NCBI GenBank assembly: GCA_964636505.1
Contig: CAZWRY010000002.1
Location: 17,248-81,247 of the forward strand
Origin: an uncultured Bdellovibrionales bacterium
Lineage (GTDB): Bacteria; Patescibacteriota; Minisyncoccia; Moranbacterales; UBA2206
Length of the DNA stretch: 64,000 nucleotides
Reading direction: 5' to 3'
Below, piece after piece: positions 23,364-60,794 of the stretch. The notes under the pieces are model-generated. The model was not told the origin of the DNA, searched no databases, and worked only from the letters and a program-made list of their open reading frames with translations. Numbering within the stretch: position 1 is the stretch's first letter; each line of letters begins with the position of its first letter. A program made the translations under genes and the position numbers.

Positions 23364-23366
23364 TTT

Positions 23367-34782: not shown

Positions 34783-34815
34783 ATTGTTTTTGTTAATGAT
34801 TAAATTCCTATTGTA

Positions 34816-35550: not shown

Positions 35551-35599
35551 AGTTTTTGTTTTTATTTGAATTTTTGATTAAAAATACAAATAAAAAAAT

Positions 35600-36112: not shown

Positions 36113-36123
36113 ATGTTTTTATT

Positions 36124-36399
36124 TTATTCTTCAATTCTTAACGCTTTTCCTTTAACAATCGCTTCGGCGATTTTAATTCTGGCAGAAGACAAAATCCGCT
36201 GAAAAGTGCTTTGAGAAGTGTTCATTTTTTTTGAAGCCTCAATTTGCTCCAGCCCGTCAAAATCCTTAAGTTTTACCGCTTCCATTTCTTCTTTAGTTAG
36301 AATAACCTCGTCCAATTCATACATCGGTATTCCCTGGGGTTTGAAATAATGAGCCTTGGGTTTGAAGCGTAATCGCTTGCATAGTTTTGGTCTTGTCAT
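36124..36399 (-). CDS. DUF134 / UPF0251 predicted DNA-binding protein.
   Basis: 91 aa; typical family length and C-terminal HTH-like QSTFQRILSSARIKIAEAIV. Confidence 0.65.
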   Translation of the reverse strand: MTRPKLCKRLRFKPKAHYFKPQGIPMYELDEVILTKEEMEAVKLKDFDGLEQIEASKKMNTSQSTFQRILSSARIKIAEAIVKGKALRIEE

Positions 36400-36400
36400 A

Positions 36401-37453: not shown

Positions 37454-37468
37454 TTTATATTACACTTT

Positions 37469-38674
37469 TTATCCAAACATCAGCCACTGTGGTTTGAATA
37501 TCAAAAGTATTCCGATAATAAGCATAATCATTCCACCAATTAGTTGCGAGTATTTTGAATACTTGGTAGAAATTCCTGTCATTTCCAGAGTAATCATCGC
37601 TACAAAGAAAATAAACAAATCATCCAGCATAAAGAAAAAAATGTATAGCAAAATGTAAAGATAGTATTGTAATTTGGAAAGTTCGTTGAGTGCCAAGACT
37701 TGAGTGTATACCGCAGGAAGTCCCGCTGAACAAATGAGTTCCACTAAATTTACCAAAAAAGCCAATGCGATAATTCCTCCCAGTGCTAGCCAAAAACTAT
37801 TTTTACCGACTGTCGCTTTCAATTTTTGGAAAACTTTCTGTCGACTTTCGTCATTAGCGACTTTGCATCCGCTTTCTTTGTTGAATAAAAATTCTTTCAA
37901 ACTGTATCCTCCGCCAAATAACGCTAAAATTCCAATCAATATCCGCACCCAAATCACAAAGCCGAGAAATAAAATAAGATTAAGCCAGGCAGACATAAAC
38001 AAAAAATAGACGGAAGCGGAGGCGATAATAAAAGCTGTTCCCAAAATCCACATCCTTTTTCGGTCTTTCATCCCCAAAAGCAGACTAATAAGAAATAGGA
38101 GGGTCCACATCGCACAAGGGTTGAAACCGTCCAGAAAACCCATAATTATCGTGAGAATCGGCAGAGAAAATTTGTAAGCGTCAATTTTTCCAATAAGCGG
38201 AAGATTGATAATTTTCTCTTTTTCATTATTTTCAGATTCGGTGTTTTGTTTTGAATCTTTTTTATTTTCATCTTTAGAATTCATTATACTCGCTATCTTG
38301 TCAGGACAGCCACTATTGTTGCATTTTTCTATCTGGCTTTTGATTTCTTCCGAAGTTATGCTTTCAGCATATCCGACAAAATTTTTGTCACTGATAACCG
38401 AAAACGGAACGCCTGAAACATCTACATTCAATGATTTACCAATTTTTTGCAAAAGCAATGCGTTTTCCTTGTTGTGATATATTTCAAAACTCCTTATTTC
38501 CAAATTCGGATAAACTTTTTGCATTTCCTGCAAGAATTGCATCTCCTTGGCACAATGCGGGCAGCCATCACCGTAAAAGAAATATGCCTTTATTGATTCT
38601 GAAGCGTTAACCGAAATTACTGGTAGAGTCAGAAATGAAATTGAAAAAAATAATAGTAAAAAAAACTTCTTCAT
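37469..38674 (-). CDS. Thioredoxin-domain protein fused to a CcdA/DsbD-type thiol-disulfide transmembrane transporter.
   Basis: 401 aa; signal peptide, GCPHC thioredoxin motif, then multi-TM region with FNPCAMW (DsbD_2-like). Confidence 0.7.
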   Translation of the reverse strand: MKKFFLLLFFSISFLTLPVISVNASESIKAYFFYGDGCPHCAKEMQFLQEMQKVYPNLEIRSFEIYHNKENALLLQKIGKSLNVDVSGVPFSVISDKNFVGYAESITSEEIKSQIEKCNNSGCPDKIASIMNSKDENKKDSKQNTESENNEKEKIINLPLIGKIDAYKFSLPILTIIMGFLDGFNPCAMWTLLFLISLLLGMKDRKRMWILGTAFIIASASVYFLFMSAWLNLILFLGFVIWVRILIGILALFGGGYSLKEFLFNKESGCKVANDESRQKVFQKLKATVGKNSFWLALGGIIALAFLVNLVELICSAGLPAVYTQVLALNELSKLQYYLYILLYIFFFMLDDLFIFFVAMITLEMTGISTKYSKYSQLIGGMIMLIIGILLIFKPQWLMFG

Positions 38675-38677
38675 ACG

Positions 38678-38947
38678 CTATTTGTTTTGGTTTTGATTGA
38701 TAATTTCAACCAGCTTGTCCTTATCAATTTCTCCGTTTAAACGCAAAAATTCTTTTTCTTCTTTGTCTAAAAAAACAAAAGTGGGAAGCGTTTTGTCAAT
38801 TTTATGTTTCTTCACCATTTCTTTGTCATTGTCAAAATCATAATACTCGGTTTTAAGCCAGGGATTTTCCTCTTCAATTTTTTTCCATCTGGGCTTCATA
38901 ACTAGACACCCAGAGCACCAAACAGCCCCGAATTTTAATACTTTCAT
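38678..38947 (-). CDS. Small thioredoxin-like protein.
   Basis: 89 aa; WCSGC CxxC motif. Confidence 0.6.
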   Translation of the reverse strand: MKVLKFGAVWCSGCLVMKPRWKKIEEENPWLKTEYYDFDNDKEMVKKHKIDKTLPTFVFLDKEEKEFLRLNGEIDKDKLVEIINQNQNK

Positions 38948-39831
38948 AAATTTTGTTTTAAATTATTGTTCATTTCTATATTGCTAATTATTTCCTGAAA
39001 CAAACTTTTGTATTCTGGGTTCATCTCTAAAATCGGCTTCATCTCAATAGTTGCATCAACAAAATCTTTTCGGTATGGAATTTTGCCTAATATCGGAATA
39101 TCACTCTCTTTGGCAAATTTTTCTATTTCCAAACAAAAATTATTTGCTAAATCGTATTTATTGATAACAATTCCGTGCTTGATTTGGAAATGACGAGCCA
39201 GATACAAAACTCTTTTTAAATCGTGTAGAGCTGAGGGCGTTGGTTCGGTTACGGCCACAATATAATCAGTGCCGACCAACGAAGCTATAACCGGGCAACC
39301 GACTCCAGCTGAAGAATCTATAAGAAGCATTTCAATTTTTAATTGCTGGCTAATTTTGTCCGCATACTTTCTGACTTCCGCTACAATCTCTCCTGAAGCC
39401 AGTTCTCCCAGTTTAAGCTCGCCCGAAACAATATTTACTTGATAATTTTTTCCTGTGTATATTTCTCCGATTTCCTTTTTATCTTCCGAGATAGCTCCTG
39501 TTGGACAAGCTACTTTGCAAGCCTTGCATCCGATGCAAATATCTTGCACGAAAGCGGGATATTTATCTTTGACAAAAACAATGGCGTTTTGCTTGCAAAC
39601 TTCGGCACATTTTCCGCATTTCTTGCATTTAGAAAAATTCCACTTGGGAATGGCCTGATAAACAGTTTCAGATTTTTTTCTTTGAACAGAAAGCAAAAGA
39701 TGGTCATTGGGACATTCCACATCGGCATCAACTAAAAGTGTTTTATATTTTCTGGCAAATTCAATCGCCAAGGAAGTGGCAACCATCGATTTTCCCGTTC
39801 CGCCTTTCCCCCCAGTAACCGCTATCTTCAT
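38944..39831 (-). CDS. MinD/Mrp-like P-loop ATPase with an inserted 2x[4Fe-4S] ferredoxin domain.
   Basis: 295 aa; GGKGGTGKS deviant Walker A; two CxxCxxCxxxCP motifs (CKKCGKCAEVC, CIGCKACKVACP). Confidence 0.8.
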   Translation of the reverse strand: MKIAVTGGKGGTGKSMVATSLAIEFARKYKTLLVDADVECPNDHLLLSVQRKKSETVYQAIPKWNFSKCKKCGKCAEVCKQNAIVFVKDKYPAFVQDICIGCKACKVACPTGAISEDKKEIGEIYTGKNYQVNIVSGELKLGELASGEIVAEVRKYADKISQQLKIEMLLIDSSAGVGCPVIASLVGTDYIVAVTEPTPSALHDLKRVLYLARHFQIKHGIVINKYDLANNFCLEIEKFAKESDIPILGKIPYRKDFVDATIEMKPILEMNPEYKSLFQEIISNIEMNNNLKQNL

Positions 39832-40187
39832 AGTTTATGCTCTTCGCAAACATCTTCCAAAGATGCTTTCTGAAGTTTATTATTTTTCCACATCTCAAAA
39901 ATTTCTTTTACTGTTTCCGCTGATTGAACATATACTTCAATATTAAACTCTCGGCATAAATTCAAAGCCCGTGGACCCAATCCTCTGCAAAGCAAGACAT
40001 TCGCACTATGTTTTTTCATAAGTTCTGGCGGAAGCCCAATTCCTCCCATATGTTCGCTGGTATTATCTATTATTTCAAGAACTTGCCCATTTTCATCAAG
40101 AAACGTATAAGTATTGCACCTGCCGAAATGTTCGGCTATTTTGTCGTCTAAACCTTTTTTACCGTCTGTTGGAATGACAATTTTCAT
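39828..40187 (-). CDS. NifX/NifB-C-terminal-like dinitrogenase FeMo-cofactor-binding-domain protein.
   Basis: 119 aa; MKIVIPTDGK...FGRC...; small alpha/beta fold of this family. Confidence 0.7.
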   Translation of the reverse strand: MKIVIPTDGKKGLDDKIAEHFGRCNTYTFLDENGQVLEIIDNTSEHMGGIGLPPELMKKHSANVLLCRGLGPRALNLCREFNIEVYVQSAETVKEIFEMWKNNKLQKASLEDVCEEHKL

Positions 40188-40194
40188 ATTGGTT

Positions 40195-40527
40195 TTAATT
40201 GCTTAATTTTTTATCAATAAATTTCTGGATAACATCTTTTACTGCTCCATCCCCATTATATACTTCAATATTGAATTGCTTCAAAACATCCATTGCTCTG
40301 GGCCCTATGGTTCTGGCGATTACAACATTAACATTATTTTCTGCTAAAAGCTTGGCAGCCGACATTCCTGCCCCGCTAGCTTGATTTTCGTTATCGTTCT
40401 TTATGGCATCCGCTTTTGTTATCTTGCCGTTTTCAATATCTGCAATGACAAAATATGGGCATCTGCCAAATAACTCGGCAACACTATCGGACAATTCTTT
40501 GCCTTCCGAACTAATAGCTATTTTCAT
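40195..40527 (-). CDS. NifX/NifB-C-terminal-like FeMo-cofactor-binding-domain protein (second copy).
   Basis: 110 aa; MKIAISSEGK...FGRCPYFVI family signature. Confidence 0.7.
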   Translation of the reverse strand: MKIAISSEGKELSDSVAELFGRCPYFVIADIENGKITKADAIKNDNENQASGAGMSAAKLLAENNVNVVIARTIGPRAMDVLKQFNIEVYNGDGAVKDVIQKFIDKKLSN

Positions 40528-40547
40528 AACATTGAAATCTTAAAAAA

Positions 40548-40820
40548 TTATTTTTGATTTTTAATCTCTTCCAAACGGGATTTGACCGCTTTTAATTCTT
40601 CTTCCAGAACTTCCGCTTCTTTAGCAAGAATTTCAGCTTCTTCTTTTTTGTCTACGATTGGAGCAGGATAGTATCCCCAAAATCTTCTCCAGCCCAATCC
40701 GCGACCACCGCCTCGTCTTCGTCCATAATCCATACCGCCACCACAAGGACCCATTCCTCTTCCTGACATCGGTCCCATTCCCATCGGGCCTGTTCCATTT
40801 TGTCTTGGCATATTTATCAC
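40548..40820 (-). CDS. DUF5320-family small protein (Gly/Met-rich N-terminus plus coiled coil).
   Basis: 90 aa; MPRQNGTGPMGMGPMSGRGMGPCGGG typical of DUF5320, which is found next to NifX-like and MinD-Fd genes in anaerobes. Confidence 0.6.
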   Translation of the reverse strand: MINMPRQNGTGPMGMGPMSGRGMGPCGGGMDYGRRRGGGRGLGWRRFWGYYPAPIVDKKEEAEILAKEAEVLEEELKAVKSRLEEIKNQK

Positions 40821-40929
40821 CTCACTTTCTATTTTAGTTTTTTAGTTGAGTATATACTATGAATATATACCCATAATATATTACTGTCAAACACGCAGAC
40901 TATTTCAAAATTTTTTATCCGGGCATCCC

Positions 40930-40958
40930 TTGATTTTTTCAGCTTTTTAGCGTAAAAT
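40930..40958 (+). promoter_or_regulatory. Sigma-70-like promoter candidate (TTGATT-17-TAAAAT) for the 757-aa gene.
   Basis: -35 at 40930..40935, -10 at 40953..40958, ATG at 40983. Confidence 0.4.
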
Positions 40959-40982
40959 AAGGAAAATTATAATTACAATTAT

Positions 40983-43256
40983 ATGCCTCTTGATTTCGAT
41001 ATACCCGCCTCAAAAGCTAGAAAATTCGGTCTGATTGAAGAACTTCCAAAAATAAAGGATACAGAGAGGGTTTTAATTGAGGTTAATTCAATAAAAGAGA
41101 CAGCTAGTTCCGTTGACATTGATTGCAGGGTTTCGGTCAGAGGGAAACAAAGTGAGAATAAGATAAAATATTCAATAAACGATATTACGCCAGAAAAAGC
41201 CACCTTCGCAGGATGGGCTTTTATTTTGTCTTATACAGAACGAGGTGGATTCTATTCTGGCGAAAAAATTTCCGAGAAAGAAGAAAAATCTCTAAAGGAT
41301 AGTGCTAAAGCATTTCTCGAAATAGCAACAAAAGAGGATTCTTCAAAATCAAAAAAAATATCTTGTTTGCCTTATTATTTAATAGCAAAACATCACTTAT
41401 ATGATTATAAGGATAGGGCGAAAACAAACCTTCATAAATCGTTAGACTGTCCCGATGTATTTCCAGATGCATACGATGCTTTAATAAATCTAGAAAGCTA
41501 TTCCGTAAAGAAATTGCTTATTGCCCAAGAAGGATTAAAAAAATTCCCAAGTGAAGAAAAACTTATAACTGAAATAGTAGATTACTATGTTGAACATAAC
41601 GAAAATAAAAAAGCAACCGATTTAATTCTAAGCAAAAAAGAAGTCATTCCACCGGACAAATGGATAAATTATAAAAGTCTAAGATTGTTGCTGGTTTTTT
41701 GCTTAATCAAACTTAAAAAATTCGATGAAGCAAGAAAAGAAACAAAAATACCAATATGCGAAACTGACTTTGAAGAAGATGCAAATCTTTTTCTAAAAGG
41801 ATTCATTGAATATGAAGCTGGTGATTATCAAAAGGCAACCGACTTTTTTCTTGATACAATAAAAATTTCCACTTATAACTCTAGCGAAGTAAGAGCAAGT
41901 TATTATTTCCTATTGGGATGCTATTATAATCTGGGACAGACAAGCCAACTGGAAGAACTAGCCAAGGAATTTGAATTAGCCAGTGATTACTTTTACGTAG
42001 AAGCTCTTAGGGGGTTTCACTATGTGGAGAATGTTAGAAAAATTCTCAAAGATATAATCAAATCTGAAGTTGATGAACTCGTAAAAGCTAAACTTTCTGG
42101 ATTATTGGCTTTCTCTTATTTTCAGGAAATTGAAACTAATCAGCAAAGCATTAAAAACAGAGCTTTCTGGGGCGGAGATTTAACAAAAAAGGAGAAGGAG
42201 AGAATAAAGAAAAACCTTTCACTTTTAGAGGATACCTTGAGATACTATCCGCGTGTTTCATTTTTTAATGCCTTGTATGCAAATTTATGTAATTATATTG
42301 GATATTATGATAAAGCTGTTAAATTTGACTTGAAGGCAATTGACGGCAAGGAAAATGAAAATATGGATGCATACAGCTATACGGAACTTACTGAATGTTC
42401 TAAGGAATTTATTGATAATTATGCAGAAATAATCAAGGAAAATGTTAGAGATATTGATAAATATATCGAAGAAAGACTTAGTTCAGACATAAACTCTTTA
42501 TACGAAATAAAAAAATACAATGTAATATCAGAGATATATTTCTATCTTAAAAATCAGAACAAGCTTGATACAATATGGGGAGCAGAAACTGAAAGCTTTA
42601 ATGGCTTCCTATTCCGTCTTGCATATAGCCTGAATGAAAAGGGACATATAAAAGACGCTTCGGTGGCATACAAAAAACATATTGAATTTTACGATGAAGA
42701 TTCGAGTGTTCTGAATAACTTGGCACTAATAAGAGAAAAAGAAGGCAAACTGGAAGAAGCAAAAAGCTTAATAACCAAGGCTAAAAATATTTCTGAAGAA
42801 AATGATGAGGTGGTTGATAGAAATTATGCCCGATTGACTTCGAGTTCAAAAAAAATACAATCAACTTCAGAAATTATTGAAAAAGCAGAAGAAATAAAAT
42901 CAACATTCACACCCCAAGCATTGATTGAAAAAGGCATAGGATATTTCCAATTTCGCAAACAGCGACCAAAAATAAAAATTGGCCAATCTGATAGTCGGCA
43001 TTTCAGATTGTTGCAATTTTTATCCAGTCCTCTTGGCTCTTCCAGAACCATCGACAGCGTTTTTGACGCCATTAAATTGCCGAAAGATAAAAATGACCAG
43101 ATGCTGAACGGCTATAACACCTATCAATCAATCGGCAGAAAAATAGACCTAATAGAGTATGCTAAGAAAGAACTTCAAAAAAATAAGGAGCTTCAGGGCA
43201 GACTCAAGTTTGAATTAGACCGCAATCAAAAAACATATAGGCTTCGGCTTGTTTAG
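40983..43256 (+). CDS. Large TPR-like / alpha-helical repeat protein of unknown function.
   Basis: 757 aa; several TPR-like helix pairs (for example AYKKHIEFYDEDSSVLNNLALIREKEGKLEEAKSLI); no catalytic motif recognised; starts the putative integrative island. Confidence 0.6.
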   Translation: MPLDFDIPASKARKFGLIEELPKIKDTERVLIEVNSIKETASSVDIDCRVSVRGKQSENKIKYSINDITPEKATFAGWAFILSYTERGGFYSGEKISEKEEKSLKDSAKAFLEIATKEDSSKSKKISCLPYYLIAKHHLYDYKDRAKTNLHKSLDCPDVFPDAYDALINLESYSVKKLLIAQEGLKKFPSEEKLITEIVDYYVEHNENKKATDLILSKKEVIPPDKWINYKSLRLLLVFCLIKLKKFDEARKETKIPICETDFEEDANLFLKGFIEYEAGDYQKATDFFLDTIKISTYNSSEVRASYYFLLGCYYNLGQTSQLEELAKEFELASDYFYVEALRGFHYVENVRKILKDIIKSEVDELVKAKLSGLLAFSYFQEIETNQQSIKNRAFWGGDLTKKEKERIKKNLSLLEDTLRYYPRVSFFNALYANLCNYIGYYDKAVKFDLKAIDGKENENMDAYSYTELTECSKEFIDNYAEIIKENVRDIDKYIEERLSSDINSLYEIKKYNVISEIYFYLKNQNKLDTIWGAETESFNGFLFRLAYSLNEKGHIKDASVAYKKHIEFYDEDSSVLNNLALIREKEGKLEEAKSLITKAKNISEENDEVVDRNYARLTSSSKKIQSTSEIIEKAEEIKSTFTPQALIEKGIGYFQFRKQRPKIKIGQSDSRHFRLLQFLSSPLGSSRTIDSVFDAIKLPKDKNDQMLNGYNTYQSIGRKIDLIEYAKKELQKNKELQGRLKFELDRNQKTYRLRLV

Positions 43257-43302
43257 AGTATTTCAGAGTAAAACATAGAAAATTAAAAGGCATCAGTTTA
43301 GA

Positions 43303-43330
43303 GGGCTTTATTGGAAAGCCTTTTTTATTT
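43303..43330 (+). terminator. Rho-independent terminator of the 757-aa gene.
   Basis: GGCTTT ATTGG AAAGCC followed by TTTTTTATTT. Confidence 0.6.
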
Positions 43331-43437
43331 GGATAAAATAGCCGCATTTTCTATACAAAACCCTCTTTAACCCTCTCACTCATTTTTCACTGAGAGGGTT
43401 ATTCATACTGGACATATAACCATTAACAAAAAATTAT

Positions 43438-43731
43438 ATGCCCAGAAAATTATCCAAAAGTAACTCGGAGAAATTGGGTCGGATTTCATCCGATAACTAT
43501 CAAGATTTTTTAACTACTTATGACTTAGGCTGTTCAGCCGCACTGGTGAGCAGTGGCTTTGAGCTTGTCTCGCTGGATAAATCCAATCCGAAAAAAGTCC
43601 AGTTTATTTTCAAAAGAGAAATCGGCATTGAAAAAGTTGTTGACCAATACTGGGCAGACCGTCTGGATGTGAAGGCTAGGACGTTTTTCGACAACGTGAA
43701 AATGCTCAAAAATCGCATCTGGAGCGAATAA
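43438..43731 (+). CDS. DUF5659-like small protein.
   Basis: 97 aa; core TTYDLGCSAALVSSGFELVSLDKSNPKKVQFIFKRE resembles the DUF5659 family recalled from memory. Confidence 0.45.
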   Translation: MPRKLSKSNSEKLGRISSDNYQDFLTTYDLGCSAALVSSGFELVSLDKSNPKKVQFIFKREIGIEKVVDQYWADRLDVKARTFFDNVKMLKNRIWSE

Positions 43732-43745
43732 TTAACTTTGCCCAG

Positions 43746-44087
43746 ATGAAAACAAATACCCGAAAAATTTGTAGCCACAGAAGCTATACGATAGACGAAC
43801 TATCGAAAATTCTGGGCAAATGTGAAAAGACTTTTTCCCGTTGGATTGAAGAAGGCTTGAAAACAATCCCTGGATGCAAGAAGCCAATTCTGATAAGTGG
43901 CCGAGAAGTTAAAGAATTTATGAAGAATAGAAGATTAAAAAGAAAAATCCCGCTCAACCGCAACCAGTTTTTATGTATGACTTGTAAGGCCGCAAGATAT
44001 GCCAAAAGAGGTTCAATTAAGGTTGTCGGCGACAAAAAAACTGCTCTCTGTCGTGTCTGCAACGGCAAAATGAGCCGAATAATTTAG
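43746..44087 (+). CDS. Small HTH-like plus zinc-ribbon protein, hypothetical.
   Basis: 113 aa; C-terminal CMTCK...CRVCNG Cys4. Confidence 0.45.
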   Translation: MKTNTRKICSHRSYTIDELSKILGKCEKTFSRWIEEGLKTIPGCKKPILISGREVKEFMKNRRLKRKIPLNRNQFLCMTCKAARYAKRGSIKVVGDKKTALCRVCNGKMSRII

Positions 44088-44112
44088 CCCTACCAAAACG
44101 ACTATATGATAT

Positions 44113-45279
44113 TTGCAATCCTCGCTTAAATGTCTATTTTCACTGCTAATTATTATTTTCAACATTATGACAAAAATACTCTACCAAAATGAGCAAAGAA
44201 AACGGGAATTTCTCGAGCATTTGAAAGGTGCGGAAGGTTTCTCTGAAAGCTCCATCAATACCTTTGCTGAAGCCGTAGACCAATGGCAGATTTTCACCGA
44301 AAACGATGACTTTGCTAATTTCAACAAGTCAAAGGCTCTATCTTTTCGAGACTGGCTGAAAACTAGAAAATCCAACACTGAAAACGGCACAATTTCACTG
44401 GTAACACAATATAACTATCTTCGCCGAGTAAAAAGATTTTTCACTTGGCTAGCGGGGCAACCAGTTTATAAAAACAAAATTTTAAAGAATGACGTGGAAT
44501 TTTTACGCCTTTCTAAGGGAGATGCCCGCATAGCTCGCCAAGGCACGACCAAGCAAATGCCCACTTTTGAAGAAGCAAGGGCAATAATTGAAAGCATAGC
44601 GATAAAAAACGAAATAGATATGCGAGACCGAGCATTTATCTCCTTTATTCTTACTACTGGTATTCGCATTCACGCCGCCGCAACCTTGCGAATGAAAAGT
44701 TTTGACGCGAAAAACAGACTGATAGACCAAAATCCGGCAGACGGTATAAAAACCAAAAATTCAAAACGGATACTAACCACTTTCTTTCCTATAGGCTGGG
44801 ATGAACCGGAAAAATATTTTTTGGAATGGTTTGATTATTTAAAATCAAAAGGTTTCCGGCCAGATGACCCGATTTTTCCAGCTACACTAAATAATTTGAT
44901 TTCTGGAAGACAAGCTTACAGCCAAAATTCAATCGGCAGAAATTTTTGGAGCGGCACGAGCGGTGCAAGAAAAATTTTTGAGAAAAGATGTAAAAATGCT
45001 GACCTGCCATATTTTCATCCACATTCTTTCCGCCATTTGGTAGTTAACATTTTGAGTAAAACCCGTCTCACAGAAGAAGAGAAACGGGCCATAAGTCTTA
45101 ACCTTGGGCACGCCAATGTCGGCACGACTTTTGGTTCATATGGCTATGGAAGTATGACTGAAGATGACGCAGTCAAAATAGTGCAGAAATTGAAAGCAAC
45201 CAATCAAGACGGGAGCAATTTAGTCCTTTCAGATGATGAAAGAGCTGTTTTTGAGCGAGTTATAAATAGAATTTTATAA
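44113..45279 (+). CDS. Tyrosine-type site-specific recombinase/integrase. The true start is probably the ATG at 44167 (MTKILYQNEQ...).
   Basis: 388 aa; N-terminal SAM-like core-binding domain; catalytic R...HSFRH...LGHANVGTTFGSYGY (R-H-R-Y). Confidence 0.8.
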   Translation: MQSSLKCLFSLLIIIFNIMTKILYQNEQRKREFLEHLKGAEGFSESSINTFAEAVDQWQIFTENDDFANFNKSKALSFRDWLKTRKSNTENGTISLVTQYNYLRRVKRFFTWLAGQPVYKNKILKNDVEFLRLSKGDARIARQGTTKQMPTFEEARAIIESIAIKNEIDMRDRAFISFILTTGIRIHAAATLRMKSFDAKNRLIDQNPADGIKTKNSKRILTTFFPIGWDEPEKYFLEWFDYLKSKGFRPDDPIFPATLNNLISGRQAYSQNSIGRNFWSGTSGARKIFEKRCKNADLPYFHPHSFRHLVVNILSKTRLTEEEKRAISLNLGHANVGTTFGSYGYGSMTEDDAVKIVQKLKATNQDGSNLVLSDDERAVFERVINRIL

Positions 45280-45297
45280 ATAATACACGAGAAGAGA

Positions 45298-45528
45298 ATG
45301 GCTATCAAAGCTCGGATACAATTTCAGAGGATTTATAAAAATCCCGAAAAAACAATTTCTTTCAGAGAGGCTTTTATGTGCTCGGAAATTTCAACAAAAA
45401 AGATACATCAGCCCTCAGTGGATTATCAGCTCGCCGAAAATGAAGACGGGTTGTTTGAGAAAGCCTTTGACATTTTGTTTGAAGAAACATTGAGGCAAAA
45501 TAATGATTTGACAACTAATGACAATTAA
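45298..45528 (+). CDS. Hypothetical small protein.
   Basis: 76-aa ORF between the two recombinase genes; no motif. Confidence 0.3.
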   Translation: MAIKARIQFQRIYKNPEKTISFREAFMCSEISTKKIHQPSVDYQLAENEDGLFEKAFDILFEETLRQNNDLTTNDN

Positions 45529-45543
45529 GTATATAATAAAATT

Positions 45544-45723
45544 ATGGAATTTCTCACACTTGAACAAGTGGCTAAATACTTTGGAGTTCATCCTCGCACC
45601 GTTATGCGTTGGCTTAAGCAAGGCAGTCTCAAAGGTTATAAGTTGGGCAAAGGCAAAACGGCTCTTTTACGCATCCCCAAATCAGAAGTAAGTAAATTTT
45701 TAGAAAAACATAAAATCAAATGA
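45544..45723 (+). CDS. Excisionase / MerR-like HTH DNA-binding small protein; its stop overlaps the recombinase start (ATGA).
   Basis: 59 aa, below the ORF-track cutoff: MEFLTLEQVAKYFGVHPRTVMRWLKQGSLKGYKLGKGKTALLRIPKSEVSKFLEKHKIK; helix-turn-helix_17-like. Confidence 0.55.
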   Translation: MEFLTLEQVAKYFGVHPRTVMRWLKQGSLKGYKLGKGKTALLRIPKSEVSKFLEKHKIK

Positions 45724-47360
45724 ACTCGTTGAATGATGACAAATCAATAAAGCTTATAGCCACTTACGCTCGTGTTTCTGAAAATCCTGATGATGAAGAA
45801 GGGACTATAAAAAATCAGTCAATGACTTTTAATGAATTGGCTGAAAAGAATAATTGGCAGATAATCCAAGAATATAAAGATGATGATTGGAGTGGCGACA
45901 TTTTGGAACGACCCGCACTTGATAAACTTCGGCTTGATGCAAAAAACAAAAACAGAGTTTGGGAAGCAGTCCTTATTTATGACCCAGACCGTTTGGCTCG
46001 CCGATACTCTTATCAAGAACTGGTGATGGATGAATTGCGGGAAGCAGGCATTGAGGTGATTTTTGTAACCGTTCCCGCTCCCCGAAATACTGAAGAAAAA
46101 ATAATGTATGGCTTCAAGGGCTTGTTTGCCGAGTATGAACGAGCAAAAATTGCCGAGAGATTTCGTTTAGGCAAACTTCGCAAAGCCAGAAACGGACATA
46201 TTTTGACAACACAACCTTTATACGGCTATAACTATATTCCAAAACAAGGTGATAGGCACGGCTATTATGAAATCAATCCGATAGAAGCAAGAGTTGTTAA
46301 AATGGTATTTTCTTGGATTGCTAATGACGGAATGACTTTGAGGGGCGTGGTAAAAAAATTGCACGAGTTGGGCATCAGACCACGCAAAAGCAAAAGGGAT
46401 GTTTGGAACACGGGCACATTGAGCACAATGCTTCGGCATAGAGGATATATTGGTGAGGCACACTGGGGCAGTTCGTATGCAGTTGTTCCTGAAAGGCCGC
46501 TCAAAAATGAAAAATATAAAAAAGTAAAAAAGACCAGCCGCAGGATTAGACCAAGAGAAGAATGGATAACAATTCCTGTTCCAGCAATTATTGAGACAGA
46601 ATTATTTGAAAAAGCGAACACTCAATTGCAAGCAAATTTTGCATTATGCAAACGTAACAAAAGAAATGAATATCTCTTGGCTGGTAAAATTGAATGCGTC
46701 TGTGGCAGAAAAAGAACTGGCGAAGGATATTACAATAAGCCAAATCTTTATTATCGTTGCAGTGATAGAGTGCTAAATTTTCCCTTACCATCAAAATGCA
46801 AGGAAAGAGGCATCAATGCCAGAGTAGCTGATGAGCTTGTTTGGAAAAAAATTGCAAGACTAATGAGTTCTCCAGAATTGCTGGCAGAGCAAGTCAATCG
46901 CTGGTTCAAAAACAAGCAAAGTAAAACGGGAACGGTATTGATTGATATTGAAGCTCTAAAAAAAGAAGTTGAAAAACTGGGCAAACAAGTTGAACGATAT
47001 AATAAAGGCTATGGAGTGGGAGCGTTCACTCTGGATGAGCTCAAGGAATACACTGACCCTCTACGAGAGCAAATTAGCCAGCTTCAAGCCCAAATTTCAA
47101 AAGCTACAAGTGAAAGCAATCAAACTCATCTGAAAGCACCAAATGAGCAAGAAATGGAAGCATTTGCCGAAAAAGCGAGAAAGACCCTTCAAAACTTGAG
47201 TTTTACTCTCAAACGTGCGATAATTTTAAATACTGTTGAAAAAGTAATTGCTTCAAAAGAACATTTACGGGTAAACGGTTATTTACCCCTAAATGTCTCA
47301 TTGTGTTATGAAGATAGGAATTGTAGGACTGCCGAATGTGGGCAAAAGCACTCTGTTTAA
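45720..47360 (+). CDS. Large serine recombinase (resolvase, recombinase and zinc-ribbon domains).
   Basis: 546 aa; catalytic YARVSE serine, DxxRLAR motif, recombinase domain, Cys-rich zinc ribbon (CVCGRK...CSDR), coiled coil; 3' end overlaps ychF by 50 nt. Confidence 0.88.
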   Translation: MNSLNDDKSIKLIATYARVSENPDDEEGTIKNQSMTFNELAEKNNWQIIQEYKDDDWSGDILERPALDKLRLDAKNKNRVWEAVLIYDPDRLARRYSYQELVMDELREAGIEVIFVTVPAPRNTEEKIMYGFKGLFAEYERAKIAERFRLGKLRKARNGHILTTQPLYGYNYIPKQGDRHGYYEINPIEARVVKMVFSWIANDGMTLRGVVKKLHELGIRPRKSKRDVWNTGTLSTMLRHRGYIGEAHWGSSYAVVPERPLKNEKYKKVKKTSRRIRPREEWITIPVPAIIETELFEKANTQLQANFALCKRNKRNEYLLAGKIECVCGRKRTGEGYYNKPNLYYRCSDRVLNFPLPSKCKERGINARVADELVWKKIARLMSSPELLAEQVNRWFKNKQSKTGTVLIDIEALKKEVEKLGKQVERYNKGYGVGAFTLDELKEYTDPLREQISQLQAQISKATSESNQTHLKAPNEQEMEAFAEKARKTLQNLSFTLKRAIILNTVEKVIASKEHLRVNGYLPLNVSLCYEDRNCRTAECGQKHSV

Positions 47361-48354
47361 GGCTTTAACGCGGGTAACCGTAGACATCAACAATTACCCC
47401 TTTTGCACCATTGAGCCCAATGTGGGCATTGTTAAGGTACCCGATGAACGCCTTCAAAAATTGGCTAAAATGTCGCATTCAAAAAAAATAATCCCGGCCG
47501 TGGTGGAATTTGTGGATATTGCCGGCATTGTTAAAGGCGCTTCCGTCGGCGAAGGTCTGGGTAATAAATTCCTGTCTCATATTCGCGAAGTAGATGCCAT
47601 TGCCGAAGTTGTGAGAGTTTTTAAAAATTCCAATATTACTCATGTGCACAACAAGATTGATCCGGAAAATGATATTGAAATTATCAATTCAGAATTAATG
47701 CTGGCCGACCTGGAAACCATTGGCAAAGTAAAAATCAGATTGGAAAAGGATAAGCGCGGGAATAAGAAAGGCGCTACCGAGCAATTGGAAGTTTTGGAAA
47801 AAATTCAGAAAAATTTGGAAAATGGACATTTGGCCAATGAAACAGTTTTGGATATGCAAGAAGAAAATACCCAAATCATTGTCCGCGAACTTTCACTTTT
47901 GACCATGAAACCGTTCTTGTATGTCTACAACATAGCTGATGTTAATCAAAAGTTATCAGATAGCTTGGAAAAAAGAAGCCATGTGAAATTGGATATAAAA
48001 ATAGAAGAAGAGCTTTTGGAAATGTCTCCCGAAGAAGCCACAGAAATGGAAATCAAATCATCAATTGATGGCTTGATAGTTAAGGCTTACGAAATTCTTG
48101 GGCTCATCACCTTCCTCACAACCGGCGAAGATGAAACTCGCGCCTGGACTATCCGCAAAAATTCAACTGCGCCGATAGCCGGCGCTGCTATTCATAATGA
48201 CTTCAAAGACCGTTTCATTCGAGCTGATATCATCCAATGGAACAAGCTCCTGGAAGCCAGCTCTTGGTCCAAAGCCAGAGAGATGGGAATGCTTAGGACC
48301 GAAGGCAAAGACTACATTGTCCAAGATGGAGACGTAATAGAATTTAAGATATAA
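47311..48354 (+). CDS. ychF: Ribosome-binding ATPase YchF (Obg-family GTPase).
   Basis: [18 protein letters not shown]1 motif, TGS domain at the C-terminus. The ORF track's upstream extension (47293) belongs to the overlap with the recombinase. Confidence 0.85.
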
Positions 48355-48517
48355 CTTGACCATTTCCAGACCAGATGCTAAACTAAAAACAATCTAGAAA
48401 GACCAGGATTTTCCCGCCCGGAGTATTCAGGGATAGGAAAATATTCATCCGCAAGAAATGGCTTTCTTTGAGGATTTTTTAATACTTTAAGATATAAATA
48501 TAAAGCACGAAAATATT

Positions 48518-48564
48518 GAAATGTTTTGTTTCATGTTTCATGTTCTATGTTTTATGAGTGTATG
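48518..48564 (+). repeat. NNNNATG heptamer ladder (CATGTT units) ending at the rpsF start codon.
   Basis: ATG triplets at 48521, 48533, 48540, 48547, 48554 and 48562 (spacing 12,7,7,7,8); the last is the S6 start. Confidence 0.65.
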
Positions 48565-49053
48565 AAATACGAACTGTTTTATCTAGTCGGTGTTTCGAAA
48601 GAAGCCGAACTGCCAAAAATAAAAGAAGATCTCAGAAATATCGTTTTGGAAGAAGGTGGTGTTTTTGAAGAGAAAGAAACCGAAGAAAAAAGAAAACTTT
48701 CCTATGCAATCAAACATGAAACCCATGGCATCTATATCGCCCAAAGATTTGAACTTGCTGAAAATGAAAAGATTCAAACTATCATCCGAAAAGTTAACCT
48801 TCATCCTAATGTTCTAAGATTTTTAATCAGCAAAACTAAAGATTTACCAGGGTTGAGAACCAAAGAAGAAAGAATCAAAGGATTTCCTGTTCAACCAGTC
48901 AAAGAAAAACCTGCAAAAAAATCCCCAGAAAAGTCAGTGAAAAAAATTGAAAAAACTGAAGTCCAAAAAGAAAAGACCGAGAAAGAAACCGCTAGTGAAA
49001 AAATTGACAATGAAGATATTGACAAAAAATTAGAAGAAATTTTAAATATTTAA
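48563..49053 (+). CDS. rpsF: 30S ribosomal protein S6 with a Lys/Glu-rich C-terminal extension.
   Basis: MKYELFYLVGVSKEAELPKIKEDL...; S6 fold followed by a KE-rich tail; classic rpsF-ssb-rpsR order. Confidence 0.8.
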
Positions 49054-49054
49054 T

Positions 49055-49190
49055 TTGTCCCTCACCATTTTTCAGCTGCTTACAAATAAAAAATAAATAA
49101 TTTTTGGAAATATAAATAATTATTTAATAACAACTTAATTATTAATAAAACCCTCGCCCTAGGCGAAAGCCGAAAAATGGTGAGGGACAA
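49055..49190. repeat. 19-bp perfect inverted repeat (TTGTCCCTCACCATTTTTC ... GAAAAATGGTGAGGGACAA) enclosing a 98-nt AT-rich loop between rpsF and ssb.
   Basis: Left arm 49055..49073, right arm 49172..49190; the right arm contains the ssb GAGGGA Shine-Dalgarno, 11 nt before the ATG at 49199. Confidence 0.8.
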
Positions 49191-49198
49191 GAAATATT

Positions 49199-49672
49199 AT
49201 GAATGTCAATAAAGTTCTTCTCGTGGGCCGGCTTACTCGCGATCCTGAAATAAGGACAACTGCCGGAGGCCAAAATGTCGCTTCACTTAGTTTGGCCACT
49301 AATCGTTTTTGGAAAGATAAAAATGGACAAAGACAAGACAAGACCACTTTTCATAATGTTATCCTTTGGGGAAGATTAGCTGAAATTGCAGGGCAATATT
49401 TGACTAAAGGGCAAGAAGCTTATATTGAAGGCCGCATAGAAACACGCAAATATACTGCCAAAGACGGAAGTGACCGCTATATTACGGAAATAATCGCTGA
49501 AAATATGCAGCTTGGATCGAAACCCCAGGGAGGAAACGGCGCCTATAATGCTTCAACTTCTAGGCCTGCCCAAAACACTCCGAGTGGACAAGGCTCAGCA
49601 CCCGAGGAAATCCCGACCATCAACCTGGATGAAGAGCAAGAAGAAGTAAAAATTTCAGATGTACCCTTTTAA
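49199..49672 (+). CDS. ssb: Single-stranded DNA-binding protein.
   Basis: 157 aa; OB-fold (LVGRLTRDPEIR...), Gly/Gln-rich linker, acidic C-terminal DVPF tip. Confidence 0.88.
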   Translation: MNVNKVLLVGRLTRDPEIRTTAGGQNVASLSLATNRFWKDKNGQRQDKTTFHNVILWGRLAEIAGQYLTKGQEAYIEGRIETRKYTAKDGSDRYITEIIAENMQLGSKPQGGNGAYNASTSRPAQNTPSGQGSAPEEIPTINLDEEQEEVKISDVPF

Positions 49673-49749
49673 GTAAAGATAATCACTAAATAGCACGAAT
49701 TCTATAGCTAATCATCATGATTTAGAAAAGATTCGTTATTTCAATTATT

Positions 49750-49956
49750 ATGGAAAAGAAACTTTGTTTTTTTTGTGAAAATAAACTGGATAAAATTGAT
49801 TTCAAAGATGCCTACCTTCTGCGAAGGTTTATGAATTCTCAAGGCAAAATTTATCCCCCCAAACGCCACGGCACTTGTTCCAAGCATCAAAGAACTCTTG
49901 CCAACGCCATCAAAAAAGCCCGCTTTATGGCCTTGGTTCCGTTTGTAGTTAAATAA
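49750..49956 (+). CDS. rpsR: 30S ribosomal protein S18.
   Basis: 68 aa; CFFCENK...IDFKD...LRRF...GKI motifs. Confidence 0.85.
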   Translation: MEKKLCFFCENKLDKIDFKDAYLLRRFMNSQGKIYPPKRHGTCSKHQRTLANAIKKARFMALVPFVVK

Positions 49957-49993
49957 CTTCACATAATGTGGGACATAGACTAAAAACTTGATT

Positions 49994-50038
49994 TATTTTC
50001 ATGTTATATGTTCCATGTTTTATGTTTCATGAATTATG
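49994..50038 (+). repeat. Perfect 7-nt NNNNATG ladder of six units ending at the efp start codon.
   Basis: ATG at 50001, 50008, 50015, 50022, 50029 and 50036, each exactly 7 nt apart; the last is the efp start. Confidence 0.7.
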
Positions 50039-50593
50039 TTAGGTATAAGTGAAATAAAAACAGGAAAAAACATCATTTTAAATAAAGAACCCTTCGCGGT
50101 TCTTTACCACGAACATTCTAAAACAGGCCGTGCTGGATCCGTTCTCAGAACCAGACTTCGCAACCTCTTAACAGGTGCTGTCTTGGAAAAAACATTTCAA
50201 GGCGCCGAACAAGTTACCGAAGCTGATATTACAAAATCCAAAGCTCAATTTCTCTATAAAGAAAAAGAGGTCTATTCTTTTATGGATACGGAAAACTACG
50301 ACCAATTTTCTCTTTCGTCTGAAACTTTGGGCGATGCCGTAAATTATTTAATTGAAGGCACGGAGGTCTCAGTTTTGAATTTCAATGGCAACCCGATCAA
50401 CATTGAATTGCCGGTTAAGATAAGCTTGGAAGTTATGGAAGCTCCACCCGGAATAAAAGGCAACACTGTTTCTACTGGCGGAAAAGTTGTAACTCTGCAA
50501 ACCGGACTCAAGATTTCTGCACCTCTTTTCATTAACCAAGGCGATGTCATCATCGTAAACACAGAGCGAGGAGAATATGTCGGGCGAGCCTGA
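50036..50593 (+). CDS. efp: Elongation factor P.
   Basis: 185 aa; KOW-like N-domain and two OB domains; GKG region; ...RGEYVGRA C-terminus. Confidence 0.85.
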   Translation: MLGISEIKTGKNIILNKEPFAVLYHEHSKTGRAGSVLRTRLRNLLTGAVLEKTFQGAEQVTEADITKSKAQFLYKEKEVYSFMDTENYDQFSLSSETLGDAVNYLIEGTEVSVLNFNGNPINIELPVKISLEVMEAPPGIKGNTVSTGGKVVTLQTGLKISAPLFINQGDVIIVNTERGEYVGRA

Positions 50594-60640: not shown

Positions 60641-60780
60641 ATTATAAATAAATTTTCAAATCTCAATTTTCAATTTTCAATCAATGATCAATTTTCAATT
60701 TTTTAATTTCAAAAATTTAGTCATTGAATCATTGGAAATTGTTTAGAAATTAGAAATTAGAAATTAGAAATTTGTTAATC
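60641..60780. repeat. AT-rich heptamer tandem arrays (TCAATTT x about 5, then ATTGGAAATTG plus AGAAATT x4) filling the rpoB-rpoC spacer.
   Basis: Direct reading; shares the 11-mer ATTGGAAATTG and AGAAATT units with the uvrC-internal element. Confidence 0.75.
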
Positions 60781-60794
60781 AAAAAATTCATTGC

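What the first reader, a model, noticed from the sequence alone, without database searches (positions are those of the whole stretch)
49055..49190. 19-bp perfect inverted repeat enclosing the rpsF-ssb spacer sequesters the ssb Shine-Dalgarno
TTGTCCCTCACCATTTTTC (starting 2 nt after the rpsF stop) pairs perfectly with GAAAAATGGTGAGGGACAA (ending 8 nt before the ssb ATG). The right arm contains GAGGGA, the only SD-like sequence for ssb. A 19-bp GC-containing stem with a 98-nt AT-rich loop is far more stable than a chance hairpin. It could be an RNase III processing site that separates S6 from SSB expression, an SSB autoregulatory structure, or the terminal inverted repeats of a roughly 136-bp MITE.
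Basis: seen in the sequence. Interest (0 to 1): 0.6.

Follow-up and report, generated by a model that had tools for sequence, protein, structure and literature searches.

The report
Conserved palindromic repeat element between genes
The hairpin between the ribosomal protein S6 gene and the ssb gene is real, but it is not specific to ssb: it is one copy of a roughly 140-base palindromic repeat that sits between other gene pairs in the same tiny-genome (Moranbacteria) bacterium and has been kept almost unchanged while the neighbouring genes diverged.

Summary
Window 49055-49073 and 49172-49190 form a perfect 19-bp inverted repeat (23 bp with one mismatch). It spans the rpsF-ssb spacer and is far beyond chance (fold z = -8.3).

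The organism is a Candidatus Moranbacteria (CPR/Patescibacteria) bacterium. The structure is not an ssb-specific regulator. It is one copy of a dispersed ~140-nt element with this plan: 20-23-nt arms, an AT-rich loop, and a small GC hairpin just 5' of the right arm.

- Two more copies lie in what is most likely the same strain: one between ftsW and murG, one upstream of rplY.
- All three loci are shared with a second lineage whose synonymous sites are saturated.
- Orthologous copies are 83-93% identical. Flanking third codon positions are 48-67% identical and other spacers 39-65%. Paralogues within a genome are only 65-80% identical.
- Both helices covary.
- Orientation relative to transcription is fixed, and the right arm (GGTGAGGGA) ends 6-11 nt before the downstream ATG.
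- I found no target-site duplication, no partner transposase and no Rfam match.

My best reading is an old MITE/ERIC/Correia-like palindromic element retained by selection and co-transcribed, whose stem masks the downstream start region. The exact mechanism is inferred, not shown.

Separately, 83% of 52 Moranbacteria rpsF-ssb spacers fold well beyond shuffled controls (z < -2), and 79% fold as a single hairpin enclosing the spacer, with unrelated sequences.

The parts
48562..49053 (+). rpsF (ribosomal protein S6, lysine/glutamate-rich C-terminal tail); stop codon TAA at 49051-49053
   Evidence: ORF; Pfam Ribosomal_S6 on the identical gene in L001/L002
49055..49077 (+). Left (5') arm of the element, TTGTCCCTCACCATTTTTCAGCT; starts 1 nt after the rpsF stop
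   Evidence: conserved and covarying with the right arm in 9 copies
49078..49153 (+). AT-rich loop of the element; its two ends (GCT.TTT.CAAATAA and TTAATTATTAATAAAA) are the conserved parts
   Evidence: alignments; 92% identity to orthologues in L006/L007/L034 although other spacers are 39-65% identical
49154..49166 (+). Small internal GC hairpin TCGCC-CTA-GGCGA, immediately 5' of the right arm. On the minus strand it extends to 10 pairs and is followed by a T-rich run, so it looks like an intrinsic terminator facing antisense (49171 down to 49139)
   Evidence: fold; terminator-like site on the minus strand; present at the same place with compensatory changes in paralogues (2 of 5 pairs with double changes, 91% of cells paired)
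49168..49190 (+). Right (3') arm AGCCGAAAAATGGTGAGGGACAA; contains an ATG (49177-49179) and the SD-like GGTGAGGGA (49179-49187); ends 8 nt before the ssb ATG
   Evidence: the most conserved block of the family, AAAA.TGG.G.GG.A
49199..49672 (+). ssb (single-stranded DNA-binding protein), the gene downstream of the element
   Evidence: PF00436 on identical proteins
49750..49956 (+). rpsR (ribosomal protein S18), third gene of the rpsF-ssb-rpsR cluster (context only)
   Evidence: ORF; PF01084 on orthologues

Best explanation
What it is (well supported). The inverted repeat forms the two arms of one copy of a dispersed, non-coding, ~140-nt palindromic intergenic element of Candidatus Moranbacteria. 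It is MITE-like in form and comparable to ERIC and Correia elements. Its plan is: a 20-23-nt arm starting (T)TTRTCCC, an AT-rich loop, a small GC hairpin, then the complementary arm ending GGGAYAA. The rpsF-ssb copy was acquired once in the ancestor of a small group of lineages, where it took the place of an older, unrelated spacer hairpin. Like the ftsW-murG and rplY copies, it has since been kept by purifying selection, in one orientation only.

How it most likely works (inferred, not shown). The element is transcribed as part of the operon mRNA, and its arms close a long stem that loops out the whole insert.
- The stem base starts 0-1 nt after the upstream stop codon and ends 6-11 nt before the downstream ATG. 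It therefore brings stop and start together and buries the downstream ribosome-binding region (the SD-like GGUGAGGGA) in duplex.
- ssb is then translated mainly when a ribosome terminating at the rpsF stop melts the bottom ~10-12 bp of the stem (translational coupling), or after an endonuclease cuts the stem (RNase III) or the AU-rich loop just 5' of the small hairpin.
- The fixed orientation follows from the small hairpin plus T-run, which would act as an intrinsic terminator if it faced the sense direction.
For: Repeat family.
- Exact-arm scan of metagenomes and nhmmer/CM searches find full-length copies at rpsF-ssb (window, L001/L002, L034, L006-L008, L104), ftsW-murG (L095/L096, L100, L101, degenerate in L098), upstream of rplY (L096, L100) and in L036.
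- L100 comes from the same sequencing run as L002, which is 99.99% identical to the window.

Selection.
- Orthologous copies are 92-93%, 83% and 85% identical, while flanking genes are 75-88% identical in nucleotides with third positions at 0.48-0.67 and other spacers at 39-65%.
- Paralogues are only 65-80% identical, which argues against homogenisation or a recent burst.

Structure.
- 93% of cells are paired against 41-50% when partners are slid.
- 8 pairs carry changes on both sides, against 1-2 in the slid controls.
- 0 of 500 shuffles reach the covariation score.
- L104 shows a C-G to U-A swap in an orthologue, and L100 versus L101 shows a U.G/C-G strain polymorphism.

Geometry.
- The left arm is 0-1 nt after the stop at rpsF and ftsW.
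- GAGGGA lies 6-11 nt before the ATG at all three loci.

Orientation.
- It is the same relative to transcription at all 3 loci. Four other elements of the same plan agree and one is uncertain.
- An antisense-facing terminator-like hairpin is found.

Clade-wide context.
- Of 52 rpsF-ssb spacers of at least 45 nt, 83% have z below -2 and 79% form a single enclosing hairpin, leaving about 9-10 nt unpaired before the ATG.
Against: - There are no transcript data: co-transcription, cleavage and coupling are all inferred.
- The rplY copy follows a Rho-independent terminator and has no adjacent upstream stop codon, so stop-start coupling cannot be the universal role.
- In L098 the left arm is largely lost while the 3' half is kept. 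This suggests that part of the constraint lies outside the long stem.
- Non-Watson-Crick cells in the stem are 6 G.U against 11 A.C on the sense strand, so nothing shows that the sense RNA, rather than the DNA or the antisense RNA, is the selected form.
- The SD-like core is 13 nt from the ssb ATG, and most relatives have no SD at all.
- No rnc gene was found in the DNA available (uninformative).
Confidence: 0.6

Rival explanations
1. Portable promoter and leader cassette. The 3' half of the element (AT-rich block, small hairpin, A-rich tract, SD-like arm) drives and stabilises a transcript of the downstream gene that begins at or near the small hairpin. The long stem forms only on read-through transcripts and silences them.
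For: - The rplY copy lies directly behind a Rho-independent terminator, with nothing but the element before the ATG.
- L098 keeps the 3' half although its left arm has decayed.
- The right arm is always 6-11 nt from an ATG.
- The conserved block (C/T)ATTAAT/TTATAAAA lies 5-10 nt before the hairpin.
- One promoter-like match, TTACCA-18-TAAAAT, lies inside the L100 rplY copy.
- Correia elements are reported to create promoters (PMC2649163).
Against: - No -35/-10 pair at a constant position is shared by the copies.
- The consensus scan finds none on the sense strand inside the window copy or the ftsW-murG copy.
- AT-rich sequence gives many chance -10-like hexamers.
- The L036 and L035 relatives are not followed by a start codon.
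Confidence: 0.2
2. Selfish or neutral MITE. A non-autonomous transposon happened to land between rpsF and ssb, has no role, and is tolerated because the hairpin does little harm.
For: - Terminal inverted repeats, small size, no ORF, and several copies at unrelated loci.
- Related elements with the same plan but other arm sequences occur in other Moranbacteria. Two of them are inserted in the loops of terminator hairpins.
- One orthologous ftsW-murG site lacks the element (L102).
Against: - Orthologous copies, including the AT-rich loop, are far more conserved than synonymous sites and other spacers.
- All three loci are shared by lineages with saturated synonymous divergence.
- Paralogues are divergent (65-80%).
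- There is no target-site duplication.
- No cognate transposase turned up. No copy was found among 2.9 million viral contigs or 50,697 phage records.
Confidence: 0.15
3. DNA-level or antisense function. The conserved part is an antisense-facing intrinsic terminator (small hairpin plus T-run on the minus strand) that blocks antisense transcription into the upstream gene, or the palindrome is a protein-binding or cruciform site.
For: - Terminator-like sites on the minus strand in the window copy (10 pairs, then TTATTAATAA) and in the L100 ftsW-murG copy.
- On the sense strand the same hairpin has only 5 pairs and no U-tract.
- A.C mismatches (G.U on the antisense strand) outnumber G.U by 11 to 6.
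Against: - The rplY and L036 copies lack the T-run.
- The 11:6 count is not significant, and the cells are not independent.
- This reading does not explain the 20-bp outer stem or the constant distance to the start codon.
Confidence: 0.1
4. ssb-specific regulator. The hairpin is an SSB autoregulatory site or a dedicated RNase III site that uncouples S6 from SSB synthesis.
For: - Position between rpsF and ssb, with masking of the ssb start region in the predicted fold.
- A hairpin in this spacer is the rule across the clade.
Against: - The same element, 65-80% identical, precedes murG and rplY.
- Close relatives (L004, L106, L107, L009) have unrelated sequences in this spacer.
- There is no Rfam r-protein leader match.
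Confidence: 0.05

Closest known systems
Correia repeat-enclosed elements (CREE / NEMIS) of Neisseria
   Same: Elements of ~100-155 bp with ~26-bp terminal inverted repeats and a conserved core. They sit in intergenic DNA next to genes and are co-transcribed, and the arms fold into a long RNA hairpin. They are reported to create promoters, bind IHF, and be bound, cut or protected by RNase III, so that they control adjacent genes (PMC2649163).
   Different: There is no sequence relationship. Correia elements number in the hundreds per genome, show a TA target duplication (from my own knowledge) and vary in presence between strains. Here only a handful of copies are seen, no duplication is visible, and the copies are positionally conserved across deep divergence. 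IHF binding and RNase III cleavage are untested.
ERIC / IRU (127-bp enterobacterial repetitive intergenic consensus) and related RU elements
   Same: Imperfect palindromes of similar size in transcribed intergenic regions. From my own knowledge (work on Yersinia ERICs), some are conserved at orthologous sites between species, and their effects on the stability and translation of flanking messages depend on orientation. Reviews held in the library: PMC3184786, PMC2267715.
   Different: This is a different phylum and an unrelated sequence. The element here has a cleaner 20-23-bp terminal stem with a large AT-rich loop and an internal GC hairpin, and a constant short distance to the downstream start codon.
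REP / BIME / REPIN elements mobilised by RAYT (Y1) transposases
   Same: Short dispersed palindromic repeats in intergenic DNA. REPINs are inverted doublets that fold into long hairpins (PMC3116915, PMC3733652). A RAYT-like gene (NF047646, 65.9 bits, below the cut-off of 80) lies next to efp in the relatives L004, L034 and L055.
   Different: The arms are not themselves palindromes and carry no GTAG or CGTC tag. No RAYT-like gene is present in the 64-kb window. Copy number is low.
Intercistronic hairpins that mediate translational coupling (for example the IF3-L35-L20 operon of E. coli, or MS2 coat-replicase)
   Same: A long-range stem hides the downstream ribosome-binding site and is opened by ribosomes translating the upstream cistron. 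The geometry here fits: the stem starts 0-1 nt after the stop and ends 8 nt before the start.
   Different: Those structures are single-locus and gene-specific, not dispersed repeats. Coupling is inferred here from geometry alone, and it cannot apply to the rplY copy.

Membership tests
MITE (miniature inverted-repeat transposable element) | Terminal inverted repeats enclosing a short non-coding core | tested here: met
   23-nt arms at 96% complementarity with a 90-nt core. No ORF: stops occur in all frames, and the ATG in the arm is in frame with the downstream gene in only 2 of 7 copies.
MITE (miniature inverted-repeat transposable element) | Several copies at non-homologous sites in one genome | tested here: met
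   rpsF-ssb (window), ftsW-murG and upstream of rplY (L100, from the same run as L002, which is 99.99% identical to the window). Assignment of L100 to the same genome is likely but not proven.
MITE (miniature inverted-repeat transposable element) | Target-site duplication flanking each copy | tested here: not met
   The flanks of the window, L006, L096 (two copies), L100 (two copies) and L036 copies share no direct repeat. The empty site in L102 differs by an unrelated 19-nt AT-rich filler rather than by a clean excision. Old duplications could have decayed.
MITE (miniature inverted-repeat transposable element) | A cognate autonomous element (transposase gene) with the same ends | tested here: inconclusive
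   The only genuine metagenome hits to the 20-mer arm were element copies; the other three were chance matches inside coding regions. No hits in viral contigs or phage records. Whole genomes could not be scanned.
MITE (miniature inverted-repeat transposable element) | Presence/absence polymorphism between close relatives (recent mobility) | tested here: not met
   Sister strains L001/L002 have an identical copy. All three loci are shared by lineages with saturated synonymous sites. Paralogues are 65-80% identical.
REP / REPIN (RAYT-mobilised) | Each unit is itself an imperfect palindrome carrying a conserved GTAG or CGTC tag | tested here: not met
   The arm TTGTCCCTCACCATTTTTCAGCT has no internal palindrome and no GTAG or CGTC. 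Criteria from PMC3733652 and PMC3116915.
REP / REPIN (RAYT-mobilised) | A RAYT gene in the genome, usually flanked by the repeats | tested here: inconclusive
   A RAYT-like ORF occurs in L004/L012, L034 and L055, below the NCBIfam cut-off. tblastn finds none in the window. The rest of the genome was not available.
Correia element (CREE) | Sequence homology to the Neisseria consensus, TA duplication, IHF site, RNase III cleavage of the folded arms | not testable with these tools
The TA duplication is not seen. This is resemblance of form only.
Rho-independent terminator | GC-rich stem-loop followed directly by a U-tract on the transcribed strand | tested here: not met
   No terminator-like site on the plus strand at 49055-49198. 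The right arm is followed by GAAATATTATG. A terminator-like site exists only on the minus strand, at the small internal hairpin.
Known structured RNA families (Rfam 15, including ribosomal-protein leaders) | A covariance-model match at the gathering score | tested here: not met
   No match in the whole window at gathering thresholds. In 48300-50100 there are only sub-threshold microRNA-precursor hits, that is, generic long hairpins.
Integron attC site | Conserved outer cores RYYYAAC ... GTTRRRY around an imperfect palindrome downstream of a cassette ORF | tested here: not met
   By inspection the ends are TTGTCCC ... GGGACAA. The flanking genes are core genes (rpsF, ssb, ftsW, murG), not cassettes.

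The most novel reading that the evidence does not exclude
In Moranbacteria, and perhaps other CPR bacteria, operon spacers are under a general rule that whatever lies between a stop codon and the next start codon must fold back on itself. The insert is thereby looped out of the mRNA, and stop and start stay adjacent. Families such as this element, and the 'word hairpins' built of tandem 7-9-nt units, would then be selected RNA modules that set the expression ratios of neighbouring genes through coupling or processing. They would be a previously undescribed layer of post-transcriptional organisation in streamlined genomes, rather than selfish DNA.
Probability: 0.2. Interest if true: 0.65.

Novelty: new member of a known kind. 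Interest (0 to 1): 0.45.

Why it matters
CPR/Patescibacteria genomes are about 1 Mb and are usually described as stripped of repeats and regulation. This work shows three things:
- a palindromic repeat family kept under purifying selection at the same three gene junctions across lineages whose synonymous sites are saturated;
- long hairpins that are roughly 200-fold enriched over shuffled sequence in 620 kb of Moranbacteria DNA;
- a hairpin of some sequence in about 80% of rpsF-ssb spacers across the clade.

If these structures act on mRNA, they are a cheap, protein-free way to tune the ratios of operon products in organisms with few regulators. They would also give a concrete target for metatranscriptomic end-mapping.

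There is a practical point too: the ATG inside the right arm misleads gene callers into N-terminal extensions. For example, the L096 MurG is called as 372 aa beginning MVRDKF (P0121).

Tried and rejected
- Rfam at gathering thresholds on the whole window, and at E up to 5 on 48300-50100: nothing but generic hairpin (microRNA-precursor) noise. tRNA/tmRNA search: none in the window or in L036.
- Arm scan of IMG/VR viral contigs and blastn against phage records: no match.
- Three of the six metagenome hits to the arm 20-mer (L093, L094, L097) are chance matches inside coding regions. In L094 the match lies inside a 492-aa ORF (78-1556) and reads EPKNGEG.
- SSB autoregulation or S6:S18 leader: rejected, because the element also precedes murG and rplY.
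- Small ORF or N-terminal extension from the arm ATG (49177): the frame relative to the downstream gene is inconsistent (in frame only in L096 ftsW-murG and L104).
- Internal sigma-70-type promoter: no consistent -35/-10 pair. Kept only as a rival.
- Sense-strand terminator: no U-tract.
- Strand test by wobble pairs (G.U against A.C): 6 against 11, inconclusive.
This is uninformative because only fragments of genomes are held.
- Target-site duplication: none found in seven copies. The L102 'empty' site is not a clean excision.
- REPIN and attC readings: defining motifs absent.
- First attempts at the S6 frame, the hairpin census (polluted by runs of N) and the intergenic fold scan (timed out) were wrong or failed, and were redone.

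Full report
1. THE OBSERVATION

The rpsF ORF ends with TAA at 49051-49053 and ssb starts at 49199. TTGTCCCTCACCATTTTTC (49055-49073) is the perfect reverse complement of 49172-49190. With one A.C mismatch the arms extend to 23 nt (49055-49077 / 49168-49190), with 90 nt between them.

The 19-mer has no other match in the window at up to 3 mismatches (0.05 expected). As RNA the region folds at -49.5 kcal/mol, z = -8.3, with 0 of 200 shuffles as stable. In the predicted fold the stem closes the whole spacer, and a second 5-bp GC hairpin (49154-49166) sits just 5' of the right arm.

Two refinements apply. The SD-like GAGG (49182-49185) is 13 nt from the ATG. Most relatives' ssb genes have no SD-like sequence at all.

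2. ORGANISM AND CONTEXT

SSB homologues place the window in Candidatus Moranbacteria/Moraniibacteriota, part of the CPR or Patescibacteria. The gene order is ychF, rpsF, ssb, rpsR, efp, then recA on the other strand. Contigs of sister strains (L001-L003, 99.8-99.99% identical) carry an identical spacer. Rfam finds nothing in the 64 kb, and there are no tRNA genes.

3. IT IS A DISPERSED ELEMENT, NOT AN ssb-SPECIFIC STRUCTURE

A scan of JGI metagenome contigs for the arm 20-mer returned the rpsF-ssb spacer of a relative (L092 = L007). It also returned a second, full-length copy between ftsW and murG (L095/L096). The three other hits are chance matches inside coding regions.

nhmmer and a covariance model built from the copies added four more:
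- a copy upstream of a 223-aa L25/Ctc gene on the same contig (L096 6534-6674);
- a divergent copy in L036;
- a copy in L034;
- a related element in L035.

Looking up MurG relatives gave L100. It comes from the same sequencing run as L002, which is the window's strain. L100 carries both the ftsW-murG copy (7929-8070) and the rplY copy (3361-3499). So the window's genome most likely holds at least three copies.

L104 (SSB 92% identical) is a third lineage with the rpsF-ssb copy. L004, L106, L107 and L009 have other sequences in this spacer.

4. THE COPIES ARE OLD AND CONSTRAINED

The window, L007/L034 and L004 lineages are roughly equidistant: 74-88% nucleotide identity, with third codon positions at 0.46-0.72, which is essentially saturated.

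| Locus (orthologous pair) | Element identity |
|---|---|
| rpsF-ssb (window vs L007/L034) | 92-93% |
| ftsW-murG (L100 vs L096) | 83% |
| upstream of rplY (L100 vs L096) | 85% |

The neighbouring spacers are only 39-65% identical. The flanking genes have third positions at 0.50-0.65. Paralogues are only 65-80% identical, and those within one genome 69-73%.

Orthologues being more alike than paralogues argues against a recent burst or concerted homogenisation, and for purifying selection on each copy, including the ends of the AT-rich loop.

In L098 (the same MAG as L004) the ftsW-murG copy has lost most of its left arm but keeps the loop's 3' part, the small hairpin and the right arm. In L102 the site holds only 27 nt. 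I found no target-site duplication in seven copies, and no transposase with matching ends.

5. STRUCTURE

On nine distinct copies (alignment A4):
- 93.1% of cells in the 21-bp outer stem and the 5-bp inner hairpin are standard pairs, against 41-50% when partners are slid by 1-3 columns;
- 8 pairs show changes on both sides, against 1-2 in the slid controls;
- 0 of 500 shuffles reach the covariation score.

Matching arms are also what terminal inverted repeats would give. The inner hairpin is not a terminal repeat and covaries too.

Non-Watson-Crick cells in the outer stem are 6 G.U against 11 A.C on the sense strand. The data therefore do not say whether the sense RNA, the antisense RNA or the DNA is the selected form.

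On the minus strand the inner hairpin extends to 10 pairs and is followed by a T-rich run, so it looks like a terminator. This holds in the window copy and the L100 ftsW-murG copy, but not in the rplY copy.

6. GEOMETRY AND ORIENTATION

At rpsF-ssb and ftsW-murG the left arm starts 0-1 nt after the upstream stop. At all three loci GAGGGA lies 6-11 nt before the downstream ATG.

The element has the same orientation relative to transcription at all three loci. Four further elements of the same plan but with other arm sequences agree (L004 4505, L020 2169, L032 4804, L009 9162), and one is uncertain.

A simple reason for this follows from established knowledge of intrinsic terminators. In the opposite orientation the inner hairpin plus T-run would terminate the operon transcript.

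7. WIDER PATTERN

The same plan recurs with different arm sequences in other Moranbacteria: a 5' end TTnRYCCC, a T-run, an AT-rich loop, a small GC hairpin, an A-run, and a 3' end GGGRYnAA. Two such elements sit inside the loops of terminator hairpins.

Independently, most rpsF-ssb spacers in about 70 Moranbacteria genomes are long hairpins built of tandem 7-9-nt 'words' and their complements. Of 52 distinct spacers of at least 45 nt:
- the median z is -3.6;
- 83% have z below -2;
- 79% fold as one enclosing hairpin that leaves about 9-10 nt before the ATG.

Hairpins with at least 19 matched bp number 60 in 620 kb, against 0.3 in shuffles. In the window's lineage the element appears to have replaced such an older hairpin.

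8. INTERPRETATION

Shown:
- a real, non-random hairpin;
- membership of a dispersed ~140-nt palindromic family;
- positional conservation, purifying selection, covariation, and fixed orientation and spacing.

Inferred: it is co-transcribed, its stem loops out the insert and masks the downstream initiation region, and downstream translation then depends on unwinding by the terminating upstream ribosome and/or on endonucleolytic processing.

The rplY copy sits behind a terminator, and the L098 copy lacks its left arm. Both show that the 3' half may have a role of its own, as a promoter/leader cassette or an antisense terminator. I keep these as rivals.

An ssb-specific role is rejected. A purely selfish, recently active MITE is unlikely.

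9. COMPARISON WITH KNOWN SYSTEMS

The closest analogues are:
- Neisseria Correia elements, for which promoters, IHF binding and RNase III cleavage or protection are reported (PMC2649163);
- enterobacterial ERIC/RU elements (PMC3184786, PMC2267715);
- REP/REPIN elements (PMC3116915, PMC3733652).

The element meets the formal MITE features of inverted ends, small size and multiple copies. It fails on target duplication and recent mobility, and the partner-transposase test was inconclusive. It lacks the REP tags.

Full-text searches for such repeats in CPR/Patescibacteria found nothing relevant. I therefore rate it a new member of a known kind, of moderate interest. The clade-wide 'every spacer is a hairpin' pattern is the more novel lead.

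Noticed in passing
window ~34149-47282 (recombinase ORF 45720-47360): The sister-strain contig L001 joins window 33307-34148 directly to 47283 onward, with a 33-nt overlap. The window therefore carries a ~13.1-kb strain-specific integrated element. It ends in a 546-aa large serine recombinase whose ORF overlaps the ychF start. GC skew is positive over 42-48 kb.
   Followed up: partly
rpsF-ssb spacers of L012-L091, L106, L107 (e.g. L014 2926-3000, L032 2914-3000, L054 2888-3000): Most spacers are long hairpins made of tandem 7-9-nt 'words' on the left arm and their complements on the right (CATGAAA/TTCCATG, CAGTAAC/GTTACTG, ACGAAAT/ATTTCGT, and others). The sequence differs between lineages but the architecture is constant: 83% of 52 have z below -2. 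The same word hairpin can recur in the ssb-rpsR spacer of one genome (L046 2908 and 3490).
   Followed up: partly
window 60641-60794: Another intergenic 'word hairpin' between two minus-strand genes: AATTTCT x4 opposite GAAAATT repeats.
   Followed up: no
window 23163-23266 and 24583-24680: Two further long inverted repeats (31-nt arms at 84% and 34-nt arms at 82%). The intergenic region 23143-23366 folds with z = -10.4. Unrelated in sequence to the element studied.
   Followed up: no
window 48520-48561 and 49995-50035: Tandem heptamers (T)TTCATG lie directly upstream of the rpsF and efp start codons. Many relatives end the ssb spacer with CATGAAnTTATG and have no SD. This may be a clade-specific initiation context.
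   Followed up: no
window 43257-43437: This intergenic region contains a short hairpin, AACCCTCTCACTCATTTTTCACTGAGAGGGTT, whose 5' half resembles the element's arm (CCCTCACCATTTTTCAGCTG) with two 1-nt indels. It lies inside the strain-specific island.
   Followed up: no
L004 11537-12049 (-), L034 4346-4885 (-), L055 4625-5140 (+): A 170-aa Y1-transposase-like ORF lies next to efp in several relatives. Its best match is REP-associated tyrosine transposase (NF047646, 65.9 bits, cut-off 80; Pfam Y1_Tnp 30.6 bits). It is absent from the window. GTAG-containing small palindromes occur nearby (L034 4579-4634, L045 4559-4639).
   Followed up: partly
L032 4798-4889; L014 4924-5044 (-): Elements of the same plan sit inside the loop of a Rho-independent-terminator-like hairpin (AAAAAGCGGGT..[element]..ACCCGTTTTT). 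This suggests insertion into hairpin loops.
   Followed up: no
L096 1989-2006 (-) / protein P0121: The ATG inside the right arm is in frame with murG here, and gene callers extend MurG by MVRDKF (372 instead of 366 aa). Similar miscalls are likely wherever the element precedes a gene.
   Followed up: partly
L036 6081-6212 (-): A divergent copy (arms CCCCCACCACTTTT / AAAAGTGGTGGGGG) lies in a ~700-nt non-coding stretch next to smpB. It has no start codon after it and no tmRNA or Rfam hit.
   Followed up: partly
L009 1674-9014 and L010 104-7444: In this relative a different island (serine recombinase, helicase, small ORFs) is inserted between ychF and rpsF. The ychF neighbourhood seems to be a recurrent integration site.
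   Followed up: no
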